Part shown: positions 8,401-38,695 of the stretch, one piece after another
Layout: each line of letters starts with the position of its first letter
How positions within the stretch are numbered: the stretch's first letter is position 1
DNA from: a virus
DNA: 64,000 nucleotides
Virus record (IMG/VR): IMGVR_UViG_3300035670_000172
Span: 4,403-68,402 of that record
Direction: 5' to 3' (one strand)
Translations under genes and position numbers: made by a program
Notes under the pieces: generated by a model
What the model was told of the DNA's origin: nothing
Seen by the model: the letters and a program-made list of their open reading frames with translations, nothing else
Databases searched by the model: none

Positions 8401-8513
8401 TAGAAAAATAATTTTCTAAAAAACTGGCAAAATACGCACCTACCTAGTAATCAGGTGCTAGATTACTTATCAAGCCAAAAGGCTACACAAAAAATCAAAC
8501 ATTGGAGAATAAA

Positions 8514-8867
8514 ATGGAAATTAAGCAAGCAGACAAGTTCCCAGTAATCTCACGCACTGGTCGTACATCGGCAGAATTGCAAATGATTATTGACACTCTT
8601 GTAATGTCGGGAAAAACTGGATCACCTTTCTCAATTGAAAACATTGAGGCTGGTAAGAAGTATAATTCAATGCAACAAAGAATTCGTGCGCAAGCAAAGA
8701 AGCTCGGTCTAAATGTAGAAATTCATTTTGACAAAGCGAACTCTACTCTCTATTTTCGTGTGCCAAATGCAAATGGTTCAGAATTTGAGAATACACAAAC
8801 GCCGATTACAAAGACTGTAAAGGCAAAGGACATTAAGAATGTCAGAACTGCTGCAAAAACTAAGTAA
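8514..8867 (+). CDS. small basic putative DNA-binding protein, distant relative of the cassette 1-4 proteins
   Basis: RTGR motif, then helix, then YNSMQQRIRAQAKKLGLNVEIHF; GGAG RBS. Confidence 0.6.
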   Translation: MEIKQADKFPVISRTGRTSAELQMIIDTLVMSGKTGSPFSIENIEAGKKYNSMQQRIRAQAKKLGLNVEIHFDKANSTLYFRVPNANGSEFENTQTPITKTVKAKDIKNVRTAAKTK

Positions 8868-21895: not shown

Positions 21896-21969
21896 GTATC
21901 CGTAGCTCAATTGGATAGAGCAAAACACTTCTAATGTTTAGGTTATAGGTTCAAGTCCTATCGGATACG
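21896..21969 (+). tRNA. tRNA-Arg(UCU)
   Basis: GTATCCG/CGGATAC acceptor, TAGCTCAATTGGATAGAGC D-arm, AAACA-CTTCTAA-TGTTT anticodon arm, GGTTCAAGTCC T-arm. Confidence 0.92.
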
Positions 21970-21998
21970 CTAAGTTCTATAAAATATAGTGCTTAATT

Positions 21999-29393: not shown

Positions 29394-29641
29394 CCGCCTA
29401 AAAAAATTTGTCCTCGGTGCAAAGATAAAAGAAAAAGCAAAACAAAATACAATTTAGGAACTAATTGTATAAAGTAACATCATAATTTGAGAATGTATTA
29501 AAAGCAAAAGAAAAATTAAAAGAAAAACGGCGGGTGTACAAATGAATGTTCCACATTGATTTGGAACACCCGCCCGATATAAGAATTTGAGTTGTGATTA
29601 GAAATGTATATTAAATTAGAATAAGGAAGGATACAAGCATA

Positions 29642-29682
29642 GCTGGTGCTCACGGTGCGCCTAGCACTAAGTGAGCACCAGC
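29642..29682 (+). repeat. bulged hairpin element, opposite orientation (F1)
   Basis: GCTGGTGCTCAC-GGTGC-GCCTA-GCACT-AA-GTGAGCACCAGC. Confidence 0.85.
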
Positions 29683-29686
29683 GAAT

Positions 29687-29715
29687 AAAAGCCCCCAGCG
29701 AGTGCTGGGGGCTTT
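29687..29715 (-). terminator. cassette 1 terminator
   Basis: GCCCCCAGC/GCTGGGGGC stem with A-tract on the left. Confidence 0.8.
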
Positions 29716-29735
29716 CGTACTCAATGCGTATGCAA

Positions 29736-30044
29736 TTACTTGCGATTACGCTTTTTCTTTTGCACCTTTAATGCAACAAGCATTTCACCATCCTCTGTCC
29801 AAAAAATTGACACATCACGCTGTGCAATTTCTGCGCATTTGGCGACACGATTACGCCATGTGTTCTTGTGGTTCACATAGTCATCATCGGATGGTGTGCC
29901 CTGTGCCTTGTCAATTCTCACAGCGTCACCATCAATGCTTGCATCAAGCGACAGGATATCGGCAACAATTTCATCATCATGAAACGCCTCACGCCCACGC
30001 TTGACCAAATTGGTCACTTGATTAAGGTTTATCTTTTGGCTCAT
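29736..30044 (-). CDS. cassette 1: KRGR-motif basic protein, paralog A (102 aa)
   Basis: GAGGG RBS, MSQKINLNQVTNLVKRGRE...KKKRNRK. Confidence 0.85.
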   Translation of the reverse strand: MSQKINLNQVTNLVKRGREAFHDDEIVADILSLDASIDGDAVRIDKAQGTPSDDDYVNHKNTWRNRVAKCAEIAQRDVSIFWTEDGEMLVALKVQKKKRNRK

Positions 30045-30092
30045 TGTTATTCCCTCTGTCAAGGTGGTTAGGAATTGTCCTTGACATCAATT

Positions 30093-30195
30093 ACTTTATC
30101 ATATGCGGAGAATATGTGTATTCAATTTAAGAGAGACCTGATCCCCTTATGGCGGTTGTGCAACTTGATGCTAAGCGCACCGTTGCACCACCGCC
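30093..30195 (-). promoter_or_regulatory. cassette 1 promoter + upstream hairpin
   Basis: TGCGCTTAGCA-N43-TTGAAT-N21-TAAAGT. Confidence 0.8.
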
Positions 30196-30250
30196 GACCA
30201 TGTGAGTTGAGAATGTGTATTAAAAACATCTATACCTGGACTCCCAAAAA

Positions 30251-30291
30251 GCTGGCGTTCACGGTGCGACTAGCACCAAGTGAACGCCAGC
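30251..30291 (+). repeat. bulged hairpin element, opposite orientation (F2)
   Basis: GCTGGCGTTCAC-GGTGC-GACTA-GCACC-AA-GTGAACGCCAGC. Confidence 0.85.
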
Positions 30292-30295
30292 AAAC

Positions 30296-30322
30296 AAAAG
30301 CCCCCAGCGGGTGCTGGGGGCT
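30296..30322 (-). terminator. cassette 2 terminator
   Basis: GCCCCCAGC/GCTGGGGGC stem with A-tract. Confidence 0.8.
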
Positions 30323-30343
30323 ATTGCCAACGCTGATTAGGCG

Positions 30344-30652
30344 TTACTTGCGCTTGCGCTTAGCCTTGACAGGCTTGAGTGAGACGATCATCTCGCCTTC
30401 GGTAGTCCAATGAATGGACACTTCACGATCAGCCTGCTCGGCAGACTTCGCAACTCGGTTACGCCAAGTGTTTTTGTGGTTGAGATATTCATCATCGCTC
30501 GGGTCTCCCGTTGCGGTTGGAAAGATGAACGCATCGCCTTCAATGCTCGCATCTAATGCGAGAATATCAGCAACCAACTCGGGGTCGTTATATCCTTCAC
30601 GACCACGCTTGACTAGGTTTGTAACTTCATTCAGGTTTATTTTCATTGCCAT
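30344..30652 (-). CDS. cassette 2: KRGR-motif basic protein, paralog B
   Basis: MAMKINLNEVTNLVKRGREG...KRKRK; AAGGGA RBS. Confidence 0.85.
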   Translation of the reverse strand: MAMKINLNEVTNLVKRGREGYNDPELVADILALDASIEGDAFIFPTATGDPSDDEYLNHKNTWRNRVAKSAEQADREVSIHWTTEGEMIVSLKPVKAKRKRK

Positions 30653-30705
30653 AGGTATATCCCTTATCGGCAGGGGTCTAGGTTTGTTTTCCTACCGACA
30701 AATAC

Positions 30706-30807
30706 ACAATATCATATGCGATGAGAATGTGTATTCAATATAATATGTAACTCATACCCAGCCAGCGGTTGTGCAACTTGATGCTAGGCGCACCGTTGCA
30801 CCACCGC
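30706..30807 (-). promoter_or_regulatory. cassette 2 promoter + upstream hairpin
   Basis: TGCGCCTAGCA-N43-TTGAAT-N21-TATTGT. Confidence 0.8.
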
Positions 30808-30865
30808 CTGCGGGTGAGGATTGAGAATTTGTACTAAACATGTGAATGTATGTAGCTCTATACGA

Positions 30866-30904
30866 CAGGTGTTCACGGTGCGAATAGCACAAAGTGAACA
30901 CCTG
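30866..30904 (+). repeat. bulged hairpin element, opposite orientation (F3)
   Basis: CAGGTGTTCAC-GGTGC-GAATA-GCACA-AA-GTGAACACCTG. Confidence 0.85.
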
Positions 30905-30909
30905 CGAAG

Positions 30910-30938
30910 AAAAGCCCCCATGCCGAAGCATGGGGGCT
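30910..30938 (-). terminator. cassette 3 terminator
   Basis: AGCCCCCATGC/GCATGGGGGCT stem, UUCG loop on minus strand, A-tract. Confidence 0.8.
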
Positions 30939-30988
30939 CTCTCCGTTGCAGGGATAACCCTGCGCCACACTGCCGAAGCGAGTGTAGA

Positions 30989-31297
30989 TTACTTGCGTGT
31001 GCGCTTCTTCTTCACTGGCTTGAGCGAGACAATCATTTGACCGTCTTCAGTCCAGTGAATTGAGCATTCACGGTCTGCCTGTTCTGCAGACTTCGCAACA
31101 CGATTGCGCCAAGTGTTCTTGTGATTGACGAACTCTTCGTCACTTGGATCACCTGTTGCACTCTCGTAAATGAATGCGTCACCGTCAATGGAAGCGTCAA
31201 GCGACAGAATGTCTGCCACTAGTTCAGGGTCATTGTAACCCTCACGCCCACGCTTGACGAGGTTCGTGACCTCATTCAGATTGATTTTCTGTGCCAT
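30989..31297 (-). CDS. cassette 3: KRGR-motif basic protein, paralog C
   Basis: MAQKINLNEVTNLVKRGREG...KKRTRK; GGGAG RBS. Confidence 0.85.
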   Translation of the reverse strand: MAQKINLNEVTNLVKRGREGYNDPELVADILSLDASIDGDAFIYESATGDPSDEEFVNHKNTWRNRVAKSAEQADRECSIHWTEDGQMIVSLKPVKKKRTRK

Positions 31298-31370
31298 TAT
31301 ATTTCTCCCTGTTCATGAACTACCCCACCCAAAGGGTATGGGTGGTATTAGGTGTTCACCAACACTTCAT

Positions 31371-31472
31371 ACAATACCCAATGGTATGAGAATATCTATT
31401 CAATATATGAGATCATTTATCACCAGTTAGCGGTTGTGCAACTTTCTGCTAATCGCACCGTAGCCCCACCGC
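31371..31472 (-). promoter_or_regulatory. cassette 3 promoter + upstream hairpin
   Basis: TGCGATTAGCA-N43-TTGAAT-N21-TATTGT. Confidence 0.8.
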
Positions 31473-31547
31473 CAAATCGTCTTGTGAGCATGTGAATATA
31501 TATTAAATATTGAAATGGTTACGATACGATTGGGTCGGAGTTCAGGC

Positions 31548-31590
31548 AAAAAAAAACCCCCCAAGCCTCGGGGGTGAGGCTTGAGGGGTT
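31548..31590 (-). terminator. cassette 4 terminator
   Basis: CAAGCCTC/GAGGCTTG stem extended by C/G runs, A9 tract. Confidence 0.75.
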
Positions 31591-31606
31591 CGCTGGAGAA
31601 GCGACC

Positions 31607-31870
31607 TTATTGCTTGGTAATGACTGGCACTGCTATCTTACCGTTTTCCAGTGTGTACCATAACACACTGACTTTCTTATCTCCTGCGAGGCTGATAATG
31701 CGAGCACGAACACGGTTTTTGTTGGGTAGTGTGTTCGGCACTGCTCGGCGTGAGGCAACGACATCATAGACACTGCTCACCTCATCTACACACTTGGCAA
31801 GGTAAGCGTCATAGTAACGCTTGCGCCCACGCTTGGCAGTCTGTATTGAGCCTCTCTGTACTTTACGCAT
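31607..31870 (-). CDS. cassette 4: divergent KRGR-family protein (87 aa)
   Basis: AAGGAG RBS then ATG 31870; AKRGRKRYYD...NKNRVRARI...KVSVLW aligns with paralogs A-C. Confidence 0.75.
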   Translation of the reverse strand: MRKVQRGSIQTAKRGRKRYYDAYLAKCVDEVSSVYDVVASRRAVPNTLPNKNRVRARIISLAGDKKVSVLWYTLENGKIAVPVITKQ

Positions 31871-31917
31871 TTGCTTTCTCCTTGTCAGCGGGGTTAGGGT
31901 AATCGCTGACAGACATA

Positions 31918-32018
31918 ACCTTACAATATGGTATGAGAATATGTATTCAATGTGAACGCACCATGACACCCTGTCAACTGGTGTGCAATTTGTTGCTAGC
32001 CGCATCATCGCCCTCCAG
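31918..32018 (-). promoter_or_regulatory. cassette 4 promoter + upstream hairpin
   Basis: TGCGGCTAGCA-N43-TTGAAT-N21-TAAGGT. Confidence 0.8.
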
Positions 32019-32084
32019 CGAAATGTGATGAGAATTTTGTATGTATTAAATATCCAGAGATGTTCAGCTCAGTTCGGTGGGAGT

Positions 32085-32116
32085 TTCCCCCTCGCACCCG
32101 TAGGCACGAGGGGGAA
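32085..32116 (-). terminator. cassette 5 terminator-like hairpin
   Basis: TTCCCCCTCG/CGAGGGGGAA; weak U-tail. Confidence 0.6.
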
Positions 32117-32119
32117 GTT

Positions 32120-32305
32120 TCACTTGGATAGGTTGAGAGCGTGGCTGTGGACACGCCTGATTTGCTTGCGGACAATACCCCGCAGGCTCTCCCTGCAATT
32201 AGGGCAACACTTGGTCAATATGTATGTCTCCGCCTGAACAGGGACACTGGATGTTCTGCCATTGGCATAAATACCATTGACCATACGGATATGTGTGGGG
32301 TTCAT
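32120..32305 (-). CDS. cassette 5 gene 2: small Cys-containing protein
   Basis: ATGA overlap with upstream gene; CCPNC. Confidence 0.6.
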   Translation of the reverse strand: MNPTHIRMVNGIYANGRTSSVPVQAETYILTKCCPNCRESLRGIVRKQIRRVHSHALNLSK

Positions 32306-32523
32306 TCTGCACCGCCGAACATGCTATCCCAGCACTTGTCGTGGAAGCCGTTGATGAGTTGCTCACGCTGGGCTGGGGTAAGGGTAGGGAAGCAATTCTG
32401 AATGAGTTCGCCTGCCCACATGCGGGTCTTGCCGATCTCCCAGTCGTTGAAGTCTATGGTGATCTCACCATAACACTTGCACTCGGGGCAGAGCGGGGTT
32501 GGAACGGTTATCATAGTTTTCAC
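32302..32523 (-). CDS. cassette 5 gene 1: Zn-binding hypothetical protein
   Basis: CPEC...IQNCFPTLTPAQREQLINGFHDKCWD; GGAG RBS before GTG 32523 (alternative ATG 32514). Confidence 0.75.
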   Translation of the reverse strand: MKTMITVPTPLCPECKCYGEITIDFNDWEIGKTRMWAGELIQNCFPTLTPAQREQLINGFHDKCWDSMFGGAE

Positions 32524-32567
32524 TGCAATCTCCAATCTGTGCCAACGGGATTGTTGGCAACGACATA

Positions 32568-32670
32568 ACCTTAGCGTATGGCTTGAGAATGTGTATTCAA
32601 TGTTTGACCTGGCTGTATCCCTTTCCGCTGTCGTTCAATTTATTGCTAGACGCATCATCGCACGCCAGCG
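32568..32670 (-). promoter_or_regulatory. cassette 5 promoter + upstream hairpin
   Basis: TGCGTCTAGCA-N43-TTGAAT-N21-TAAGGT. Confidence 0.8.
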
Positions 32671-32735
32671 AAATGCGATGAGATCGTGAATGTGTATTAA
32701 ACATTGTGACAATCTCATCGCAGTACGCTTGGGGT

Positions 32736-32763
32736 TCTCCCCCCGCCCGAAGGCGGGGGGAGA
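32736..32763 (-). terminator. cassette 6 terminator-like hairpin
   Basis: TCTCCCCCCGCC-CGAA-GGCGGGGGGAGA (C-UUCG-G on minus strand). Confidence 0.7.
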
Positions 32764-32775
32764 GGGGATTGATTG

Positions 32776-33039
32776 TCATTGTGTGACGAAGGAAAGGTAA
32801 TCCATTTCCTCAATTGAACCCTGAACATCTGTGAACAGTTGTTCAATGTCGCTCAACTTGTCCTGAACTTCACCAATGAACTCTTGGCGCAGGGCAATCT
32901 TCATGTCAACCACAATGCTGAGCATCTGTGCGCTCATATCCATTGGGCTGATCAAGCCAGCTTCTAGTTGCCTAGCAACTTTGACTGCAGCCTCATGAGC
33001 AAGTGTGAGTGCCCTTGGGTGATCGGGTAAGTGTGTCAT
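32776..33039 (-). CDS. cassette 6: helical hypothetical protein
   Basis: AAGGAG RBS, 87 aa. Confidence 0.8.
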   Translation of the reverse strand: MTHLPDHPRALTLAHEAAVKVARQLEAGLISPMDMSAQMLSIVVDMKIALRQEFIGEVQDKLSDIEQLFTDVQGSIEEMDYLSFVTQ

Positions 33040-33085
33040 TGCTATCTCCTTGTCAAGGGGGTATGGAATGTCCTTGACAACTTCT

Positions 33086-33186
33086 ACATTACCCGATGAG
33101 GTGAGAATGTGTATTCAATCTGTAATGTCCTTCCCTTCCATTGAACTGGTGTGCAACTTGTTGCTAGACGCATCGCCGCCCTCCAG
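33086..33186 (-). promoter_or_regulatory. cassette 6 promoter + upstream hairpin
   Basis: TGCGTCTAGCA-N43-TTGAAT-N21-TAATGT. Confidence 0.8.
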
Positions 33187-33260
33187 CGATTGTAATGAGA
33201 AAATGTGAATGTATTAAAAATTGAAACTGTCTAAGCACAATCGGATCGGAGTTCAGGCAC

Positions 33261-33293
33261 AAAAAAATCCCCCAAGCCCGAAGGCTTGGGGGA
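33261..33293 (-). terminator. cassette 7 terminator
   Basis: TCCCCCAAGCC-CGAA-GGCTTGGGGGA plus A7. Confidence 0.85.
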
Positions 33294-33312
33294 CTGGGGG
33301 ACTGACTATGAG

Positions 33313-33492
33313 TTATTGCTGAGCGTTGCGCTCGGCAATTGTTTTCTCATACGAGCGAAGCAACATTGCCAAGCCTTGGATTGCTTGAGTGTTGCCCGTC
33401 TGGGTTGCTCGGTTGAGCGCACCCGACACAACGAGGAATTGTTCCTCAAGTGTCATTGGCTTTCGTGGAGCAATATCGTTCTGCTTTTTCAT
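33313..33492 (-). CDS. cassette 7: hypothetical protein (59 aa, absent from ORF track)
   Basis: AAGGAG RBS; MKKQNDIAPRKPMTLEEQFLVVSGALNRATQTGNTQAIQGLAMLLRSYEKTIAERNAQQ. Confidence 0.8.
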   Translation of the reverse strand: MKKQNDIAPRKPMTLEEQFLVVSGALNRATQTGNTQAIQGLAMLLRSYEKTIAERNAQQ

Positions 33493-33536
33493 TGCTTCTC
33501 CTTGTCGGTGGGGTTAGGAGTATCACCGACACTCAT

Positions 33537-33637
33537 ACCTTACCCAATGGCTTGAGAATGTGTATTCAATGTAAGAGTGTCATCATATGCAGTAAACTGG
33601 TGTGCAACTTACTGCTATTCGCAACGCCGCACTCCAG
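33537..33637 (-). promoter_or_regulatory. cassette 7 promoter + upstream hairpin
   Basis: TGCGAATAGCA-N43-TTGAAT-N21-TAAGGT. Confidence 0.8.
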
Positions 33638-33650
33638 CTCTTCTGTAATT

Positions 33651-33680
33651 AAAAACCCCCAAGCCCGAAGGCTTGGGGGT
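33651..33680 (-). terminator. cassette 8 terminator
   Basis: CCCCCAAGCC-CGAA-GGCTTGGGGG plus A5. Confidence 0.85.
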
Positions 33681-33700
33681 CTGTGTGAATGAATTGTCAA

Positions 33701-33913
33701 TCACTTGTTCTTTTTCAACTCAAACAATTCCATTCGCAACGCTTGAACACTCTTTACTGCATTGTCATAGTCGTTCTCTATCCTGCTGGTGACATCATAG
33801 AGTGCGGTGAATGCTTGCCTGTGATCATCGTTGTTCATGTCTAGTAAGATGTAGATTGCATCTAGTGCGGGTCCAAAGTAACTTCTCCACACTCCGTCAT
33901 GATCCTTGTACAT
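33701..33913 (-). CDS. cassette 8: hypothetical protein (70 aa)
   Basis: AAGGAG RBS, ATG 33913 (MYKDHDGVW...). Confidence 0.8.
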   Translation of the reverse strand: MYKDHDGVWRSYFGPALDAIYILLDMNNDDHRQAFTALYDVTSRIENDYDNAVKSVQALRMELFELKKNK

Positions 33914-33957
33914 TGCCTCTCCTTGTCTGTGCCAGCGGGTTGCTTGGCACATCTCTT

Positions 33958-34059
33958 ACATTATCCAATCGGGTGTGAATGTGTATTCAAGGTAAGAACC
34001 TCATGCCCTCCTTATTGCTGGTGTACAAGTTATTGCTATTCGCATCCTCGCACCCCAGC
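33958..34059 (-). promoter_or_regulatory. cassette 8 promoter + upstream hairpin
   Basis: TGCGAATAGCA-N43-TTGAAT-N21-TAATGT. Confidence 0.8.
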
Positions 34060-34126
34060 GCTTATGCCATGAGACTCAGAATGTGTATTAAACATCAAGA
34101 GAATCATGGCACAAGCAGATTGGGGT

Positions 34127-34154
34127 TCTCCCCCCACCCGAAGGTGAGGGGAGA
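34127..34154 (-). terminator. cassette 9 terminator-like hairpin
   Basis: TCTCCCCCCACC-CGAA-GGTGAGGGGAGA. Confidence 0.65.
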
Positions 34155-34159
34155 TCGTA

Positions 34160-34429
34160 TCAGTCGTAGATACGGTACCTGTCTTGTTGCTTCTCCAAGA
34201 CATGAGCCTGACGATACTTGTCAAACATCTCGCACCAAATCTTTGCGAGTGTCAATGACCCTGCAACGAAGCGCTCTACTTCATGTTGCATCTTGCCAGT
34301 CTCATCAGTGACATAGCACCAAGCAATATAGTTTGGTGTGTCGTCATGAGCCTTGTAGATCTCGTACATATGCCAATATGTCCAAGCGTACTCGGCTCTA
34401 CCGATACTTACCCACTTCATATCACTCAT
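34160..34429 (-). CDS. cassette 9: hypothetical protein
   Basis: GAAAGGA RBS; SLTLAKIWCE motif. Confidence 0.8.
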   Translation of the reverse strand: MSDMKWVSIGRAEYAWTYWHMYEIYKAHDDTPNYIAWCYVTDETGKMQHEVERFVAGSLTLAKIWCEMFDKYRQAHVLEKQQDRYRIYD

Positions 34430-34474
34430 GGGATATTCCTTTCTATCGGGGCTAGGTTTGTTCCGACAAGAGAT

Positions 34475-34578
34475 ACCTTAGCAAGTGAGACCCAAATGTG
34501 TATTCAATCTGAGAGCTCCTTCTACGCCTTGCTGCTGGTGTACAACTTGTTGCTAATCGCACCGTTGCCCACCACCGC
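34475..34578 (-). promoter_or_regulatory. cassette 9 promoter + upstream hairpin
   Basis: TGCGATTAGCA-N43-TTGAAT-N21-TAAGGT. Confidence 0.8.
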
Positions 34579-34661
34579 AGGCATGTCGTTCTTTTGGTGA
34601 GTGAAGTAAATATGTATTCAACTTAAGAATGATCTGCCTGCGAATGGGTGGGTGTTGGCAC

Positions 34662-34709
34662 AAAAAAAGAACCCCGAACGCTTCAGGGGGTGAGAAGCGT
34701 TCGGGGTTC
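34662..34709 (-). terminator. cassette 10 terminator
   Basis: GAACCCCGAACGCTTC/GAAGCGTTCGGGGTTC plus A7. Confidence 0.85.
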
Positions 34710-34712
34710 GGG

Positions 34713-34799
34713 TCAGAATGCTAGACGAAGTGCGCCTGACAAGATACTGAATATCAAGCAAGCGTACACTATGCCAGCGCCAATTTGTCCGAGTGTCAT
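34713..34799 (-). CDS. cassette 10 gene 2: 28-aa single-TM peptide
   Basis: ATGA overlap; MTLGQIGAGIVYACLIFSILSGALRLAF, ending at the terminator. Confidence 0.6.
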   Translation of the reverse strand: MTLGQIGAGIVYACLIFSILSGALRLAF

Positions 34800-35023
34800 T
34801 GGGATACCTTGCGATACTCAAGCACCTCGTAGTGATTGCCTGCGGGGTGGAATTGGGCACTTACGGTAATCTCAACTACACCGCCGTCAAGTTTGAACCT
34901 GAATACTTGGTATTCCCAAGTCTCATCAACCTCAACGGGGATAGTGTTGGATAGGATAAGGTTCAGTGCACGCTTGCCGAGCAAGGCACGCTGAACGGTT
35001 TCGCTTGTGTCTATGGTGGACAT
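34796..35023 (-). CDS. cassette 10 gene 1: hypothetical protein
   Basis: GAAAGGGA RBS, ATG 35023 (MSTIDTSET...). Confidence 0.8.
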   Translation of the reverse strand: MSTIDTSETVQRALLGKRALNLILSNTIPVEVDETWEYQVFRFKLDGGVVEITVSAQFHPAGNHYEVLEYRKVSQ

Positions 35024-35064
35024 AGTTCCCTTTCTGTCTCGGCGGGATTGCCTTGACAACCATT

Positions 35065-35166
35065 ACCTTACCAAGTGAGTACCGAATGTGTATTCAATGT
35101 CCGATCACCCTTGCCCCCTGTTGAGTGGTGTTCCACTTTCTGCTACTCGCATCGTAGACCAACACC
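35065..35166 (-). promoter_or_regulatory. cassette 10 promoter + upstream hairpin
   Basis: TGCGAGTAGCA-N43-TTGAAT-N21-TAAGGT. Confidence 0.8.
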
Positions 35167-35272
35167 GAAACGGGATTTGTGAATTGCGCTTTGCGCTTTG
35201 TGTCGTGTCTTGTTTGTTGTGAATGTACTCAATGAGTGCAAGTGCCTGGTGCATATGGGTGGGAGGAAGCAC

Positions 35273-35306
35273 AAAAAAAAGGGGGAGGAGCCGAAGCCCC
35301 TCCCCC
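35273..35306 (-). terminator. cassette 11 terminator
   Basis: GGGGGAGG/CCTCCCCC stem plus A8. Confidence 0.8.
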
Positions 35307-35327
35307 ACTTGATTGCCCTGACGGGTC

Positions 35328-35585
35328 TTACATCAAGTCCTTTGCCATCTGGCTGACAGCCTCTGCACGAGCCTTGAGGTTCACCAACAAGATTGTCGCC
35401 TCGTTGATTGCAGTGGTCAAGTCTTGCTTGATGGTCTCCATGCGGAGTACATCTGCGATCTGGTCAAGACCGATTGCATTGGACATGTCAGTGCCTTCGC
35501 TCATGGCAACTTCAGCGACCCGTGTGAGCCAACTGAAGCACTGAACGGATGTAGCCTGCACTGGTTCTGCATGCTTCTTACTCAT
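35328..35585 (-). CDS. cassette 11: helical hypothetical protein
   Basis: AGGAG RBS, ATG 35585 (MSKKHAEPV...). Confidence 0.8.
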   Translation of the reverse strand: MSKKHAEPVQATSVQCFSWLTRVAEVAMSEGTDMSNAIGLDQIADVLRMETIKQDLTTAINEATILLVNLKARAEAVSQMAKDLM

Positions 35586-35630
35586 GATTGTTCTCCTGTC
35601 AGGATGTCTGGGCATCTCGTTGACAAATAC

Positions 35631-35732
35631 ACTGTATCAAATCACTTGCGAATGTGTATTCAATTCACTTGCATCCTCTTCCCCATTTTGCGGGTGTACA
35701 ACTCTGTGCTAGACGCACCGTTGCACGCCCGC
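35631..35732 (-). promoter_or_regulatory. cassette 11 promoter + upstream hairpin
   Basis: TGCGTCTAGCA-N43-TTGAAT-N21-TACAGT. Confidence 0.8.
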
Positions 35733-35861
35733 ATTGACCCTCCCCGACACAGGGTCCGCAGAACACAAAAAAACATAAAGTAACACTCATAAAATATATA
35801 CTCAAATTTTGGATGGGATGGTGCAGTGCGGGTATAGGAGTATAAAAGTTTGGGGGAGAAT

Positions 35862-35952
35862 AAAAAAGACCGCTAGAGATGCACATGCCCCTGGGGTTGA
35901 GCCCAGAGGCATCTGCACCTATAACGGTCCTAAGGTTAGCTTTCGCTGCCTT
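35862..35952 (-). ncRNA. candidate ~90-nt small RNA
   Basis: TGTG-TATACT extended -10 at 35957-35966, GAAA-loop hairpin, long hairpin ending in a U6 tract. Confidence 0.55.
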
Positions 35953-36210
35953 TATCAGTATACACAGATACTAATTTGCGGGGTAGTAATAATGATTGGG
36001 TGTATTACCGAGAGTTCCGATAGAAGCCATGACCTTTGAAGTTGATTCCTGGCGGGGAGAATATTTGTTTAATTGGAAGGTCGCACTCAGGACAAGTATC
36101 TCTTACTTGCTCTTCAGACATCTTTCTTCTTTCTTCGTACAGATGCTGGTTAGGACAACGGTAGTGATAGATAGCCATATGTTATATAGTATACATGTTA
36201 TACTTGGTAA

Positions 36211-36612
36211 ATGTACGAATATAATGTTAAGAAGGTAACAAAAGTAGTAGATGGTGACACGATTGATGTGGACATTGATCTGGGTTTCAACATCTCCTAC
36301 ACACAGCGTGTTCGCTTGGCTGGAATTGACACCCCCGAGTCACGCACCAAAGACCTCCGAGAGAAGGCTCTGGGGCTTGAGGTTAAAAATAAAGTCAAGA
36401 ATGCGATAGATAATGCCAAAACAATTATTATAAAAACAGAGCTCCCCGATAGCACCGAGAAATACGGGCGCATTCTGGGCTGGGTGTATCTGGATAACTC
36501 TCTCAAGTCATTAAACGAACAACTCATTGACGAGGGCTATGCTTGGGGATACATGGGCGCAACCAAAGTCAAAGACTTTGACGCACTGCTCGCAAAGCGG
36601 GTGGGTAAATGA
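36211..36612 (+). CDS. thermonuclease (SNase-family)
   Basis: VVDGDTIDV, RVRLAGIDTPE, EKYGRILG. Confidence 0.9.
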   Translation: MYEYNVKKVTKVVDGDTIDVDIDLGFNISYTQRVRLAGIDTPESRTKDLREKALGLEVKNKVKNAIDNAKTIIIKTELPDSTEKYGRILGWVYLDNSLKSLNEQLIDEGYAWGYMGATKVKDFDALLAKRVGK

Positions 36613-38434: not shown

Positions 38435-38452
38435 ATTTCCTCCGTTTTATAG

Positions 38453-38525
38453 CTGGCGAGGTAGGGCTTGAACCTACGACCCAGGGATTAACAGTCCCTT
38501 GCTCTGCCAACTGAGCTACTCGCCA
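38453..38525 (-). tRNA. tRNA-Asn(GUU)
   Basis: cloverleaf; AGGGA-CTGTTAA-TCCCT anticodon arm, GGTTCAAGCCC T-arm. Confidence 0.92.
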
Positions 38526-38611: not shown

Positions 38612-38623
38612 ATTTCCTCCTAG

Positions 38624-38695
38624 AGCCCCCTCTCGGACTTGAACCGAGGACCGCTTCATTACAAGTGAAGTGCTCTACCACTGAGCTAAAGGGGC
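38624..38695 (-). tRNA. tRNA-Thr(UGU)
   Basis: cloverleaf; CTTCA-CTTGTAA-TGAAG anticodon arm, GGTTCAAGTCC T-arm. Confidence 0.92.

What the first reader, a model, noticed from the sequence alone, without database searches (positions are those of the whole stretch)
29642..35732. 14 copies of a covarying bulged hairpin (GNNTA pentaloop, AA bulge) in both orientations
Seen: an outer stem of up to 11-13 bp with compensatory changes (GCTGGTGCTCAC/GTGAGCACCAGC; GCTGGCGTTCAC/GTGAACGCCAGC; CAGGTGTTCAC/GTGAACACCTG; GGCGGT-GTGCAAC/GTTGCAC-ACCGCC), a 2-nt bulge (usually AA), an inner TGC/GCA stem and a GNNTA loop. Outer pairing is weaker in units 4-8 and 10. Eleven copies face one way upstream of promoters. 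Three (29642, 30251, 30866) have the inner part flipped and lie just past the terminators of cassettes 1-3. Each flipped copy sits 41 nt after a non-promoter twin of the AT box (TATTAAA/TACTAAA ending 29615, 30224, 30838). Twins also recur ~100 nt after the promoter box in units 3-6 and 8. Inference: structure as well as sequence is selected, yet the element lies outside the predicted transcripts, suggesting an ssDNA/cruciform recognition site. Analogies: N4 hairpin promoters, REP/IS200 HUH hairpins, integron attC with extrahelical bases. It could also be a recombination site or act during DNA injection.
Basis: partly seen in the sequence, partly recalled or inferred. Interest (0 to 1): 0.75.

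Follow-up and report, generated by a model that had tools for sequence, protein, structure and literature searches.

The report
Conserved hairpin before phage cassette promoters
A group of uncultured phages carries a row of small self-contained genes, and the same foldable hairpin sits a fixed 25 bases before each gene's promoter box; no such control element has been described and how it works is still open.

Summary
The window has 14 copies of the bulged hairpin, 11 on the minus strand and 3 on the plus strand, against 0.29 expected by chance. A 15th variant copy lies at 29527-29576. The hairpins lie in a GC-rich island (47-50% GC against 29-34% in the 19 kb to its left) of promoter-ORF-terminator cassettes in an incomplete phage record.

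The same array occurs in 5 other viral contigs and in most of 47 metagenome stretches. Across 89 distinct copies, 83% of cells pair, against 26-46% when partners are slid.

New points:
- The hairpin base lies 25 nt from a 17-nt promoter box in nearly all copies, though the spacer sequence varies.
- Flipped copies keep the same core, have almost perfect stems, and always follow one gene family at the downstream end of the array.
- Normal copies fold better on the gene-sense strand.
- ORFs, not hairpin-bounded units, are swapped between relatives.

I read the array as a promoter/stem-loop scaffold like the PeSLs of T4-type phages, with an extra structured element tied to the promoter box. DNA-level recognition is my best guess (0.35). 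An RNA role is a serious rival (0.25). An integron-like or HUH-type recombination site is disfavoured. No expression data could be had.

The parts
29638..29685 (+). hairpin copy 1, flipped (core on + strand), directly after the terminator of cassette 1
   Evidence: 47.6 bits
30149..30197 (-). hairpin copy 2, normal, 25 nt upstream of the box of cassette 1
   Evidence: (62.1 bits)
30248..30294 (+). hairpin copy 3, flipped, after the terminator of cassette 2
   Evidence: (54.1 bits)
30762..30810 (-). hairpin copy 4, normal
30861..30908 (+). hairpin copy 5, flipped, after the terminator of cassette 3
   Evidence: 53.2 bits
31427..31475 (-). hairpin copy 6, normal
31974..32022 (-). hairpin copy 7, normal, weak outer stem
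   Evidence: RNA z -1.79
32624..32672 (-). hairpin copy 8, normal
33142..33190 (-). hairpin copy 9, normal, weak outer stem
   Evidence: no consensus fold as ssDNA; consensus fold as RNA with z -1.36
33593..33641 (-). hairpin copy 10, normal; the only unit without a twin box upstream
34014..34062 (-). hairpin copy 11, normal
34531..34579 (-). hairpin copy 12, normal
35121..35169 (-). hairpin copy 13, normal
35687..35735 (-). hairpin copy 14, normal, first unit of the array
29527..29576 (-). variant 15th hairpin at the downstream end of the array: similar outer arms, AT-rich inner part instead of the conserved core; also present in relatives
   Evidence: (15.2 bits, E 0.12)
30112..30125 (-). 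promoter box P1 of cassette 1 (TTGAATACACAT.., 2 mismatches)
30725..30738 (-). promoter box P1 of cassette 2
31390..31403 (-). promoter box P1 of cassette 3
31937..31950 (-). promoter box P1 of cassette 4
32587..32600 (-). promoter box P1 of cassette 5 (two ORFs)
33105..33118 (-). promoter box P1 of cassette 6
33556..33569 (-). promoter box P1 of cassette 7
33977..33990 (-). promoter box P1 of cassette 8
34494..34507 (-). promoter box P1 of cassette 9
35084..35097 (-). promoter box P1 of cassette 10
35650..35663 (-). promoter box P1 of cassette 11
29603..29616 (-). twin box (no -10-like element) 25-26 nt downstream, in the gene sense, of flipped copy 1
   Evidence: (D5)
30211..30224 (-). twin box between flipped copy 3 and normal copy 2
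30825..30838 (-). twin box between flipped copy 5 and normal copy 4
   Evidence: (D3)
31495..31508 (-). twin box upstream of copy 6, no flipped hairpin
   Evidence: (D5)
32036..32050 (-). twin box upstream of copy 7
   Evidence: (D15)
32688..32701 (-). twin box upstream of copy 8
33204..33218 (-). twin box upstream of copy 9
   Evidence: (D15)
34079..34092 (-). twin box upstream of copy 11
34608..34621 (-). twin box upstream of copy 12
35218..35232 (-). diverged twin box upstream of copy 13
   Evidence: (D15)
29488..35915 (-). whole cassette array, a GC-rich island with 12 small ORFs on the minus strand; each unit runs terminator, twin box, hairpin, 25 nt, box, -10-like TAnnGT, leader hairpin, AAGGAG, ORF

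Best explanation
The hairpin is the upstream half of a two-part control element, hairpin then 25 nt then a 17-nt box. This element sits in front of every gene of an early-gene cassette array in an uncultured phage lineage. The array works like the promoter/stem-loop regulatory cassettes (PeSLs) of T4-type phages. A conserved intergenic scaffold gives each small ORFan its own promoter, leader, ribosome site and terminator, and ORFs are swapped between relatives by recombination in the scaffold.

I propose that the extra hairpin acts on DNA, not as part of a message. A factor, phage-made or host, reads the conserved G..TA loop, the closing TGC/GCA stem and the AA bulge on one strand of a stem-loop. 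That stem-loop is extruded or held open from negatively supercoiled DNA just upstream of a strong promoter. From the foot of the stem the factor reaches the box or the polymerase bound there, and so sets the strength or timing of the cassette promoters.

Shown: the anatomy, the maintained pairing, the fixed spacing, the two orientations, and the spread among relatives.

Inferred: that the box is the promoter, that the hairpin folds in DNA, that a protein reads it, and what that does to transcription.
For: 1. Coupling to a DNA element.
- Among 131 distinct copies from the window and 52 related loci, the hairpin lies 24-25 nt before the next box in 105 of 106 normal copies. By the same measure, 23 of 25 flipped copies lie 23-24 nt before it.
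- The spacer has almost no sequence conservation.
- In the window the spacer is 25 nt in 11 of 11 units.
- The conserved spacer positions are GG at -21/-20 and a purine at -14 and at -3, about one helical turn apart.

2. What is kept is the distance from the stem base.
- The core end lies 43 nt from the box in 104 of 115 normal copies and 42 nt in 11.
- Nine of those 11 have a bulge 1 nt shorter, so the loss is not made up in the spacer.
- Flipped copies, with the bulge on the other side, have 40 nt in 26 of 28.

3. The same strand-specific core is kept in both orientations across diverged relatives. An RNA read in one direction would not give this.

4. Pairing is maintained.
- 83.3% of cells pair, against 25.8-46.2% when partners are slid. 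The covariation score is 0.298 against 0.135 in shuffles, with 0 of 500 shuffles as high (89 distinct rows).
- The 25 distinct flipped copies have 17 different arm pairs. The inner 11 bp are fully Watson-Crick in 15 of the 17.
- Inner-stem changes are compensated.

5. By prediction the hairpins are not transcribed. Terminator-like sites lie upstream of them (16 found against 6.3 expected). In one unit the terminator abuts the hairpin, leaving no room for a promoter.

6. Nearly every TTGAAT-type box has a hairpin: 142 of 156 have a normal one, 1 a flipped one and 13 none by my core pattern. At least three of those 13 have a hairpin with a compensated variant core. The box occurs nowhere else in the window: 15 of 15 matches lie in the array.

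7. Precedent. In phage N4, stem bases may vary as long as pairing is kept, while the loop-closing pair and the loop's 5' G and 3' A are needed for extrusion (PMC4496689, passages).
Against: - Most normal copies have poor stems for a cruciform: 8-10 of 12 Watson-Crick pairs in 86 of 106. The copy at 33142-33190 does not take the consensus fold as ssDNA (z -0.71).
- Normal copies fold better on the gene-sense strand than on its complement in 90 of 106, with mean RNA energies of -20.7 against -16.8 kcal/mol.
- G-U type cells outnumber A-C cells 54 to 23.
- As RNA, 10 of 10 tested normal copies give the consensus shape as the best fold. These are marks of an RNA element.
- No candidate reader is known. 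No sigma factor or T7-type polymerase was found in five incomplete records, and the PF00940 control matched in none of its 14 control genomes. The model of the linked gene family matched no fold.
- The box is not a textbook -35. It lies 21 nt from the conserved TAnnGT, and the sigma-70 scan flagged only 2 of the 11 P1 sites.
- The copies are related by descent, so counts overstate the number of independent events. One measure, pairs with a change on both sides, was not above shuffles: 11 against 10.0, reached by 113 of 500 shuffles.
- The alignments were fitted to the model's structure.
- Flipped copies sit by a box without a -10-like element, so a hairpin can be kept without an active promoter beside it.
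Confidence: 0.35

Rival explanations
1. RNA element. The hairpin acts in RNA made by polymerases that enter a cassette from outside. Normal copies would act on sense read-through from the cassette upstream. Flipped copies would act on antisense RNA from the converging genes to the left of the array. With a bound factor, the hairpin would stop, process or modify such transcripts, so that each cassette promoter is shielded. It would be an insulator, a processing site or an antitermination site.
For: - The sense strand is the more stable in 90 of 106 normal copies, and G-U cells outnumber A-C cells 54 to 23.
- As RNA, 10 of 10 normal copies take the consensus shape. A weak copy fails as ssDNA.
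- Purine-purine mismatches are kept at fixed stem positions.
- Flipped copies occur only at the downstream end of arrays, facing the converging genes. The copy order ends in FNF in 11 of 12 arrays listed.
- From general knowledge: most covarying hairpins in phage intergenic DNA are RNA signals.
Against: - The hairpins lie after strong terminator-like sites and before the promoter box. RNA would arise only by read-through.
- A fixed distance to a promoter box has no clear reason in RNA.
- There is no U-run after the hairpin.
- No Rfam family matches.
- The flipped copies are explained equally well by descent with one gene family: 24 of 24 follow it.
Confidence: 0.25
2. Plain duplex operator or upstream activating site. 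A protein binds the roughly 45-bp quasi-palindrome as ordinary double-stranded DNA and touches the polymerase or a protein on the box. The matching of the arms would reflect dyad symmetry plus self-correction of quasi-palindromes during replication, not a folded form.
For: - Fixed spacing to the box and purines about one helical turn apart in the spacer.
- It works in either orientation.
- The 3' arm and core are conserved as sequence beyond what pairing needs, and the imperfect stems of normal copies are no problem for duplex binding.
Against: - Both arms change together between sub-types and among 17 flipped variants. A dimer reading fixed half-sites would not need this.
- Inner-stem changes are compensated.
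- The 2-nt against 4-nt asymmetry around the centre is kept in nearly all copies, which is odd for a symmetric dimer.
- A 1-nt loss in the bulge is not made up in the spacer.
Confidence: 0.2
3. Recombination element. The hairpin is a preferred crossover or cleavage point that drives cassette shuffling. This could be a hot spot for general or structure-specific recombination, as proposed for the PeSLs of T4-type phages, or a site for a dedicated enzyme of the integron, IS200/IS605 or REP kind.
For: - ORFs are replaced between relatives while the intergenic scaffold stays. For example, 31876-32122 is 94% identical in three loci whose neighbouring ORFs differ.
- Contigs of runs X1 and X2 replace the 265 nt between 31610 and 31876 with 284 other letters, and X1-X3 vary the copy number of cassettes 1-3.
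- The core and the box are the longest identical stretches in the scaffold.
Against: - Homology blocks end at ORF starts and stops, not at hairpins.
- No tyrosine recombinase, Y1 transposase or serine recombinase was found in five records, all incomplete.
- My change-point test was confounded by conservation.
- A recombination role does not explain the conserved loop, the bulge or the fixed spacing.
Confidence: 0.12
4. Selfish palindromic repeat of the REP or MITE kind that spread with the scaffold and has no use for the phage.
For: - Many copies in both orientations in intergenic DNA.
- The twin boxes look like slipped or decayed duplicates.
Against: - Copies occur only inside the array.
- They always lie at one distance from the box.
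- The core is conserved while the spacer next to it is saturated with changes.
- Flipped copies keep near-perfect pairing across 17 arm variants.
Confidence: 0.05

Closest known systems
PeSLs (promoter-early stem-loops), the mobile regulatory cassettes of T4-type phages (PMC2839356 and PMC4122927; abstracts and passages read)
   Same: - A repeated intergenic scaffold of about 100 bp or more, holding a stem-loop terminator, an early promoter, a ribosome site and the start codon.
- It flanks small ORFans, and ORFs are swapped between close relatives.
- Decayed copies keep a -35 region, with or without a stem-loop, but no -10. The twin boxes here look like that.
   Different: - Here a second, non-terminator hairpin with a conserved loop and bulge sits at a fixed 25 nt from the promoter box, separate from the terminator.
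- The promoter is not a near-consensus sigma-70 site.
- The phage is not T4-like: its portal is nearest to those of Streptomyces phages at 44-46% identity.
- The array is a GC-rich island.
Hairpin promoters of phage N4 virion RNA polymerase (PMC4496689, passages read)
   Same: - A DNA stem whose bases may vary if pairing is kept.
- A loop with a 5' G and a 3' A on a G:C closing pair.
- One strand's hairpin is the functional one.
- Located at early genes.
   Different: - As recalled, the passages giving only a 7-bp stem, N4 hairpins are small (5-7 bp stem, 3-nt loop). By the passages they are centred 11 nt before the start site and read by a giant virion polymerase.
- Here the hairpin is about 45 nt, lies 25 nt before a separate box and roughly 130 nt before the ORF, occurs in both orientations, and no such polymerase gene is in the held 68 kb.
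Integron attC sites (recalled from general knowledge)
   Same: - Arrays of gene cassettes.
- Imperfect hairpins with unpaired bases, conserved in shape more than in sequence, read on one strand.
   Different: - Cassettes here carry their own promoter and terminator.
- The swapped unit is the ORF, not a hairpin-bounded cassette.
- No integrase was found.
- Loop and inner stem are conserved in sequence.
Host-takeover gene cluster of Bacillus phage SPO1 (search listing only; details recalled)
   Same: A block of many small early genes, each group with its own strong promoter and terminator.
   Different: I know of no shared structured element at a fixed distance upstream of the SPO1 promoters. 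That statement is recalled, not checked.
RNA hairpin signals of phages: nut/boxB, put, T7 RNase III sites (recalled)
   Same: Covarying hairpins with internal loops or bulges and conserved loops between genes, more stable on the sense strand.
   Different: - Those lie inside transcripts downstream of promoters.
- These lie after terminators, at a fixed distance before a promoter box, and in both orientations.
- No Rfam match.
REP sequences with RAYT, and IS200/IS605 ends (recalled)
   Same: Imperfect palindromes with unpaired bases read on one strand, sometimes in inverted pairs, with a fixed distance from the hairpin foot to a second short site.
   Different: - No Y1 transposase was found.
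- Copies are confined to one array and tied to a promoter box.

Membership tests
PeSL-type regulatory cassettes | Repeated intergenic composite of stem-loop terminator plus promoter plus ribosome site, flanking small ORFans | tested here: met
   Scaffold read in 11 of 11 units. Terminator-like sites: 16 found against 6.3 expected. Cassette proteins lack Pfam matches and 9 of the 10 scanned lack a PHROG match.
PeSL-type regulatory cassettes | ORF replacement between close relatives with the scaffold kept | tested here: met
   Scaffold 31876-32122 is 94% identical in L158, L177 and L199 beside differing ORFs. Joints at ORF ends in the contigs of runs X1 and X2 (at likeness under 95, so weak).
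PeSL-type regulatory cassettes | Strong sigma-70-like promoter (-35, 17 nt, -10) | tested here: inconclusive
   The scan flags 2 of 11 P1 sites. The conserved TAnnGT lies 21 nt from TTGAAT. The host and its promoter type are unknown.
PeSL-type regulatory cassettes | Found in hyperplastic regions of T4-like myoviruses | tested here: not met
   The portal's best matches are Streptomyces phages at 44-46% identity. No cultured phage holds the scaffold.
PeSL-type regulatory cassettes | Mini-circles formed by recombination between flanking elements | not testable with these tools
   Needs inverse PCR on infected cells.
N4-type DNA hairpin promoter | Small hairpin centred about 11 nt before the start site | tested here: not met
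   The hairpin is about 45 nt and lies 25 nt before the box, far from the ORF.
N4-type DNA hairpin promoter | Stem free to vary if paired; conserved loop ends and closing pair | tested here: met
   The loop is G..TA in 14 of 14 window copies.
N4-type DNA hairpin promoter | Virion-packed giant RNA polymerase gene | tested here: inconclusive
   The largest ORF in the window is 658 aa. The record is 66% complete. PF00940 was not found, but its control matched in none of the 14 control genomes.
Integron attC | Tyrosine recombinase (IntI) beside the array | tested here: inconclusive
   PF00589 is absent from 5 of 5 records, all fragments of 24-66%.
Integron attC | Cassette boundaries inside the hairpin site; promoterless cassettes | tested here: not met
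   Homology ends at ORF ends. Each cassette has its own box and terminator.
REP/RAYT or IS200/IS605 | Y1 HUH transposase in the genome | tested here: inconclusive
   PF01797 is absent from 5 of 5 incomplete records.
Intrinsic terminator | G+C-rich stem followed by a T-run | tested here: not met
   None of the 16 terminator-like sites is a bulged hairpin. The consensus after the hairpin is purine-rich.
Any Rfam RNA family, CRISPR repeat families included | Match to a curated covariance model | tested here: not met
   Three sub-threshold matches at E up to 1, none on a hairpin.

The most novel reading that the evidence does not exclude
A phage lineature unrelated to N4 uses supercoil-extruded DNA stem-loops as upstream parts of otherwise ordinary promoters. 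A structure-specific factor at the foot of a bulged hairpin, a fixed 25 bp from the promoter box, would switch a whole bank of early host-takeover or anti-defence cassettes on or off according to the topology of the freshly injected DNA. DNA-structure-dependent promoter control would then be a wider phage strategy than the single N4 case.
Probability: 0.2. Interest if true: 0.85.

Novelty: new variant of a known kind. Interest (0 to 1): 0.6.

Why it matters
If the hairpin is read as folded DNA, it would be a second, independent case of structure-dependent promoter control in phages. It would also be far more modular than N4: one element per gene, in dozens of related environmental phages. If instead it is an RNA signal, it would be a new insulator or processing signal that keeps tandem strong promoters independent.

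Either way, the scaffold is a natural, compact and highly regular expression unit: terminator, hairpin, box, leader, ribosome site. It carries interchangeable ORFans of unknown function, most likely early host-takeover or anti-defence genes. It also marks where to look for such genes in metagenomes.

Tried and rejected
- **Mini-ORF in the 25-nt spacer.** I tested for one ending at the TGA inside TTGAAT. 63 of 109 distinct spacers have no in-frame start, so it is rejected.
- **Twin box as a second promoter** starting at the hairpin. There is no conserved -10-like element after it. I treat it as a decayed or slipped copy.
- **Plus-strand promoter before the flipped copies.** The hexamers I read are not at consistent spacing. 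Rejected.
- **Sigma-54, IHF and MotA-box readings.** Considered by eye only and dropped for lack of the motifs.
- **CRISPR-repeat mimic (RNA anti-CRISPR).** The inner stem and pentaloop recalled such repeats to me, but Rfam gave no CRISPR family match. Not pursued.
- **Expression.** No RNA holder was listed for the stretch. The three runs laid are contigs labelled 'RNA? probably DNA', so they say nothing on transcription.
- **Host.** The genome-contig scan gave one stretch (L207) with no hairpin by the covariance model, taken as chance. No cultured phage holds the scaffold or the family-1 protein.
- **Reader protein.** The family-1 (KRGR) protein model has pLDDT 79. It has no Foldseek match at E 0.001 or better, and its best VIA Z is 5.9, within noise. 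Neighbouring genes gave only a nuclease, oxygenases, a methyltransferase and DUFs.
- **Change-point test** for crossovers in the hairpin. 128 of 6903 pairs show a switch, 49 of them at the stem foot. The test is confounded, because the hairpin is conserved and the spacer is not, and there is an edge effect at +18. It is not used as evidence.
- **Literature.** Searches found no description of this element. The library lacks many subscription papers, and supplements are closed.
- **Rows dropped.** My scan left out copies within about 20 nt of a locus end and copies with fewer than 7 of 12 arm matches. Alignment A5 holds the best 150 of 221 matches.
- **Not run.** R-scape is not installed, so it was not run.

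Full report
**What the window is.** It is 64 kb of a 68.4-kb IMG/VR virus record judged 66% complete. It encodes a terminase, a portal, a head protease, ribonucleotide reductase, glycosyltransferases and a tryptophan halogenase. The portal is nearest to those of large Streptomyces phages, at 44-46% identity. GC is 29-34% in the 19 kb to the left of the array (window 10-29 kb) and at most 45% anywhere else in the window, but 30-36 kb has 47-50%. That island holds 12 small ORFs on the minus strand. The ten ORFs scanned against Pfam and the ten against PHROGs gave no Pfam match and one weak PHROG match. Two of them, searched against 5.8 billion proteins, have relatives only in this phage group.

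**The observation.**
- The core motif occurs 14 times, 3 on plus and 11 on minus, against 0.29 expected. It occurs nowhere else in the record.
- On the core strand every copy reads: outer arm, two bases, TGC, G..TA, GCA, a 4-nt bulge ending in AA (13 of 14), outer arm.
- The repeat finder recovers the 11 direct units of hairpin plus box, the 3 inverted units of hairpin plus terminator, and the inverted relation between them.
- A weak 15th copy at 29527-29576 has similar outer arms around an AT-rich inner palindrome. It recurs at the array end in relatives.

**Anatomy on the gene-sense (minus) strand.** Each unit reads, in order:
- the terminator of the upstream cassette;
- usually a 'twin' box without a -10-like element;
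- the hairpin of about 45 nt;
- a spacer of exactly 25 nt in 11 of 11 window units;
- the 17-nt box TTGAATACACATTCTCA, then CAT and a conserved TAnnGT;
- a leader hairpin, AAGGAG and the ORF.

The box occurs only in the array: 15 of 15 matches, against 1.4 expected. In cassettes 1-3 the terminator is followed at once by a flipped hairpin, 25-27 nt, a twin box, and then the normal hairpin. The unit 'hairpin, about 25 nt, box' is therefore present twice in tandem there.

**Relatives.**
- Pattern scans found the array in five other viral contigs and in 47 metagenome stretches. The single genome contigs match was chance. No cultured phage has it.
- In all five viral relatives the array is again a GC-rich island in AT-rich DNA.
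- A covariance model built from the 14 copies finds 61 copies in the window plus five loci, and 221 in 45 sources.

**Is pairing maintained?**
- On 42 distinct rows, 81.3% of cells pair against 26-44% when partners are slid. 13 of 19 pairs have changes on both sides, and 0 of 500 shuffles reach the observed score.
- On 89 distinct rows, 83.3% pair against 26-46% slid. The covariation score is 0.298 against 0.135 (0 of 500), and 154 cells have double changes against 58. The number of pairs with a double change (11) is not above shuffles, being reached by 113 of 500.
- The rows are related by descent and were aligned to the model, so these figures lean towards the structure.
- The clearest evidence is in the flipped copies. 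The 25 distinct copies carry 17 different arm pairs, and the inner 11 bp are fully complementary in 15 of the 17.
- The 3-bp inner stem, almost invariant, is compensated where it does change: T-A to C-G, and a TGC/GCA to TAT/ATA variant.
- Some stem positions of normal copies are regularly unpaired, mostly as G opposite A.

**New regularities.** Among 131 distinct copies (263 found; copies at locus ends or with under 7 of 12 arm matches left out), 106 are normal and 25 flipped.
- The hairpin lies 24-25 nt before the next box in 105 of 106 normal copies. By the same measure 23 of 25 flipped copies lie 23-24 nt before it. The spacer is otherwise almost free of conservation.
- The conserved spacer positions are GG at -21/-20 (84 and 100 of 109) and a purine at -14 (105 of 109) and -3 (104 of 109).
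- The core end lies 43 nt from the box in 104 of 115 normal copies and 42 nt in 11. Nine of those 11 have a bulge 1 nt shorter, so the distance kept is the one from the stem foot. Flipped copies have 40 nt in 26 of 28.
- Flipped copies always follow a gene of one family, a 102-aa basic protein with a KRGR motif: 24 of 24, against 13 of 102 normal copies. They sit only at the downstream end of arrays, in an F-N-F-N-F order.

**DNA or RNA?**
- For DNA: the fixed distance to a promoter element, the helical spacing of conserved spacer bases, conservation of one strand's core in both orientations, and the position after terminator-like sites.
- For RNA: normal copies fold better on the sense strand in 90 of 106, and G-U cells outnumber A-C cells 54 to 23. 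Ten of ten normal copies take the consensus shape as RNA (z -1.4 to -5.4), while one weak copy does not fold as ssDNA.
- No RNA data could be had. No RNA holder was listed, and the runs laid are contigs that are probably DNA.
- Weighing these, I put a DNA-level, structure-reading mechanism first (0.35). An RNA role is at 0.25 and a plain duplex site at 0.20.

**Recombination.**
- Between relatives, homology runs through the scaffolds and stops at ORF starts and stops. Contigs of runs X1 and X2 replace an ORF between kept scaffolds, and X1-X3 vary the number of family-1 cassettes (likeness under 95, so weak).
- This is the behaviour described for the PeSLs of T4-type phages, including decayed copies that keep a -35 region without a -10 (PMC4122927 and PMC2839356, abstracts and passages).
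- It is not what hairpin-bounded cassettes would give. No tyrosine recombinase, Y1 transposase or serine recombinase is in the five records, all incomplete.

**Comparison with the known.**
- The array is best filed as a new variant of the PeSL kind of mobile regulatory scaffold, in an unrelated phage lineage.
- The bulged hairpin has no counterpart in the PeSL papers I read, no Rfam family and no hit in five literature searches.
- It shares design rules with N4 hairpin promoters (PMC4496689, passages) but fails their defining geometry.

The family-1 protein is a candidate only by position. Its model (pLDDT 79) matches no solved fold above noise.

**Limits.** All related sequences are metagenomic fragments. 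Supplements of papers were not available.

Noticed in passing
window 29736-31870 and 8502-8867: Three tandem paralogues (69-85% identical) of a 102-aa basic protein with a KRGR motif and a KRKRK tail, plus a 30%-identical fourth cassette gene and a 25%-identical ORF far away at 8502-8867. The family is known only from this phage group (20 clusters, all 'hypothetical'). The model has pLDDT 79 and no fold match.
   Followed up: partly
window 34656-34767 (-): ORF-free tail of a cassette with a sub-threshold Rfam match to the Pseudomon-1/ErsA small RNA (31.9 bits, gathering 50, E 0.0029), ending in a terminator. It may be a small RNA or a long 3' UTR.
   Followed up: no
window 30000-36000; L155-L159: The array is a GC-rich island (45-52%) in AT-rich phage DNA (26-35%) in the window and in all five viral relatives. 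The cassettes therefore form a separate compositional compartment.
   Followed up: partly
G002, G003, G004 (loci L157, L158, L159): Three of five related contigs end within about 300-850 bases of their last core match. This may be an assembly break at the repeats or a real genome end. It was not resolved.
   Followed up: no
window 29575-30326, runs X1-X3: Contigs of wastewater runs join 29713 to 30324 (skips 610) and 30326 back to 29731 (goes back 596). Relatives thus differ in the number of family-1 cassettes.
   Followed up: partly
L165 around 1153-1200 and other loci: Many twin boxes carry a 6-nt slipped repeat (ACATTC twice, once three boxes in a row). This looks like replication or recombination slippage in the box.
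   Followed up: no
window 36211-36612 (+): A staphylococcal-nuclease homologue (PF00565, E 2.6e-14) lies just upstream of the array on the opposite strand. 2OG-Fe(II) oxygenases and an FkbM methyltransferase follow.
   Followed up: no
window 21896-21970, 38452-38525, 38623-38695: Three tRNA genes (Arg-tct, Asn-gtt, Thr-tgt).
   Followed up: no
window 35862-35930 (-): A long hairpin followed by a T-run just upstream of the first unit of the array. It is terminator-like and closes off transcription coming from the right.
   Followed up: no
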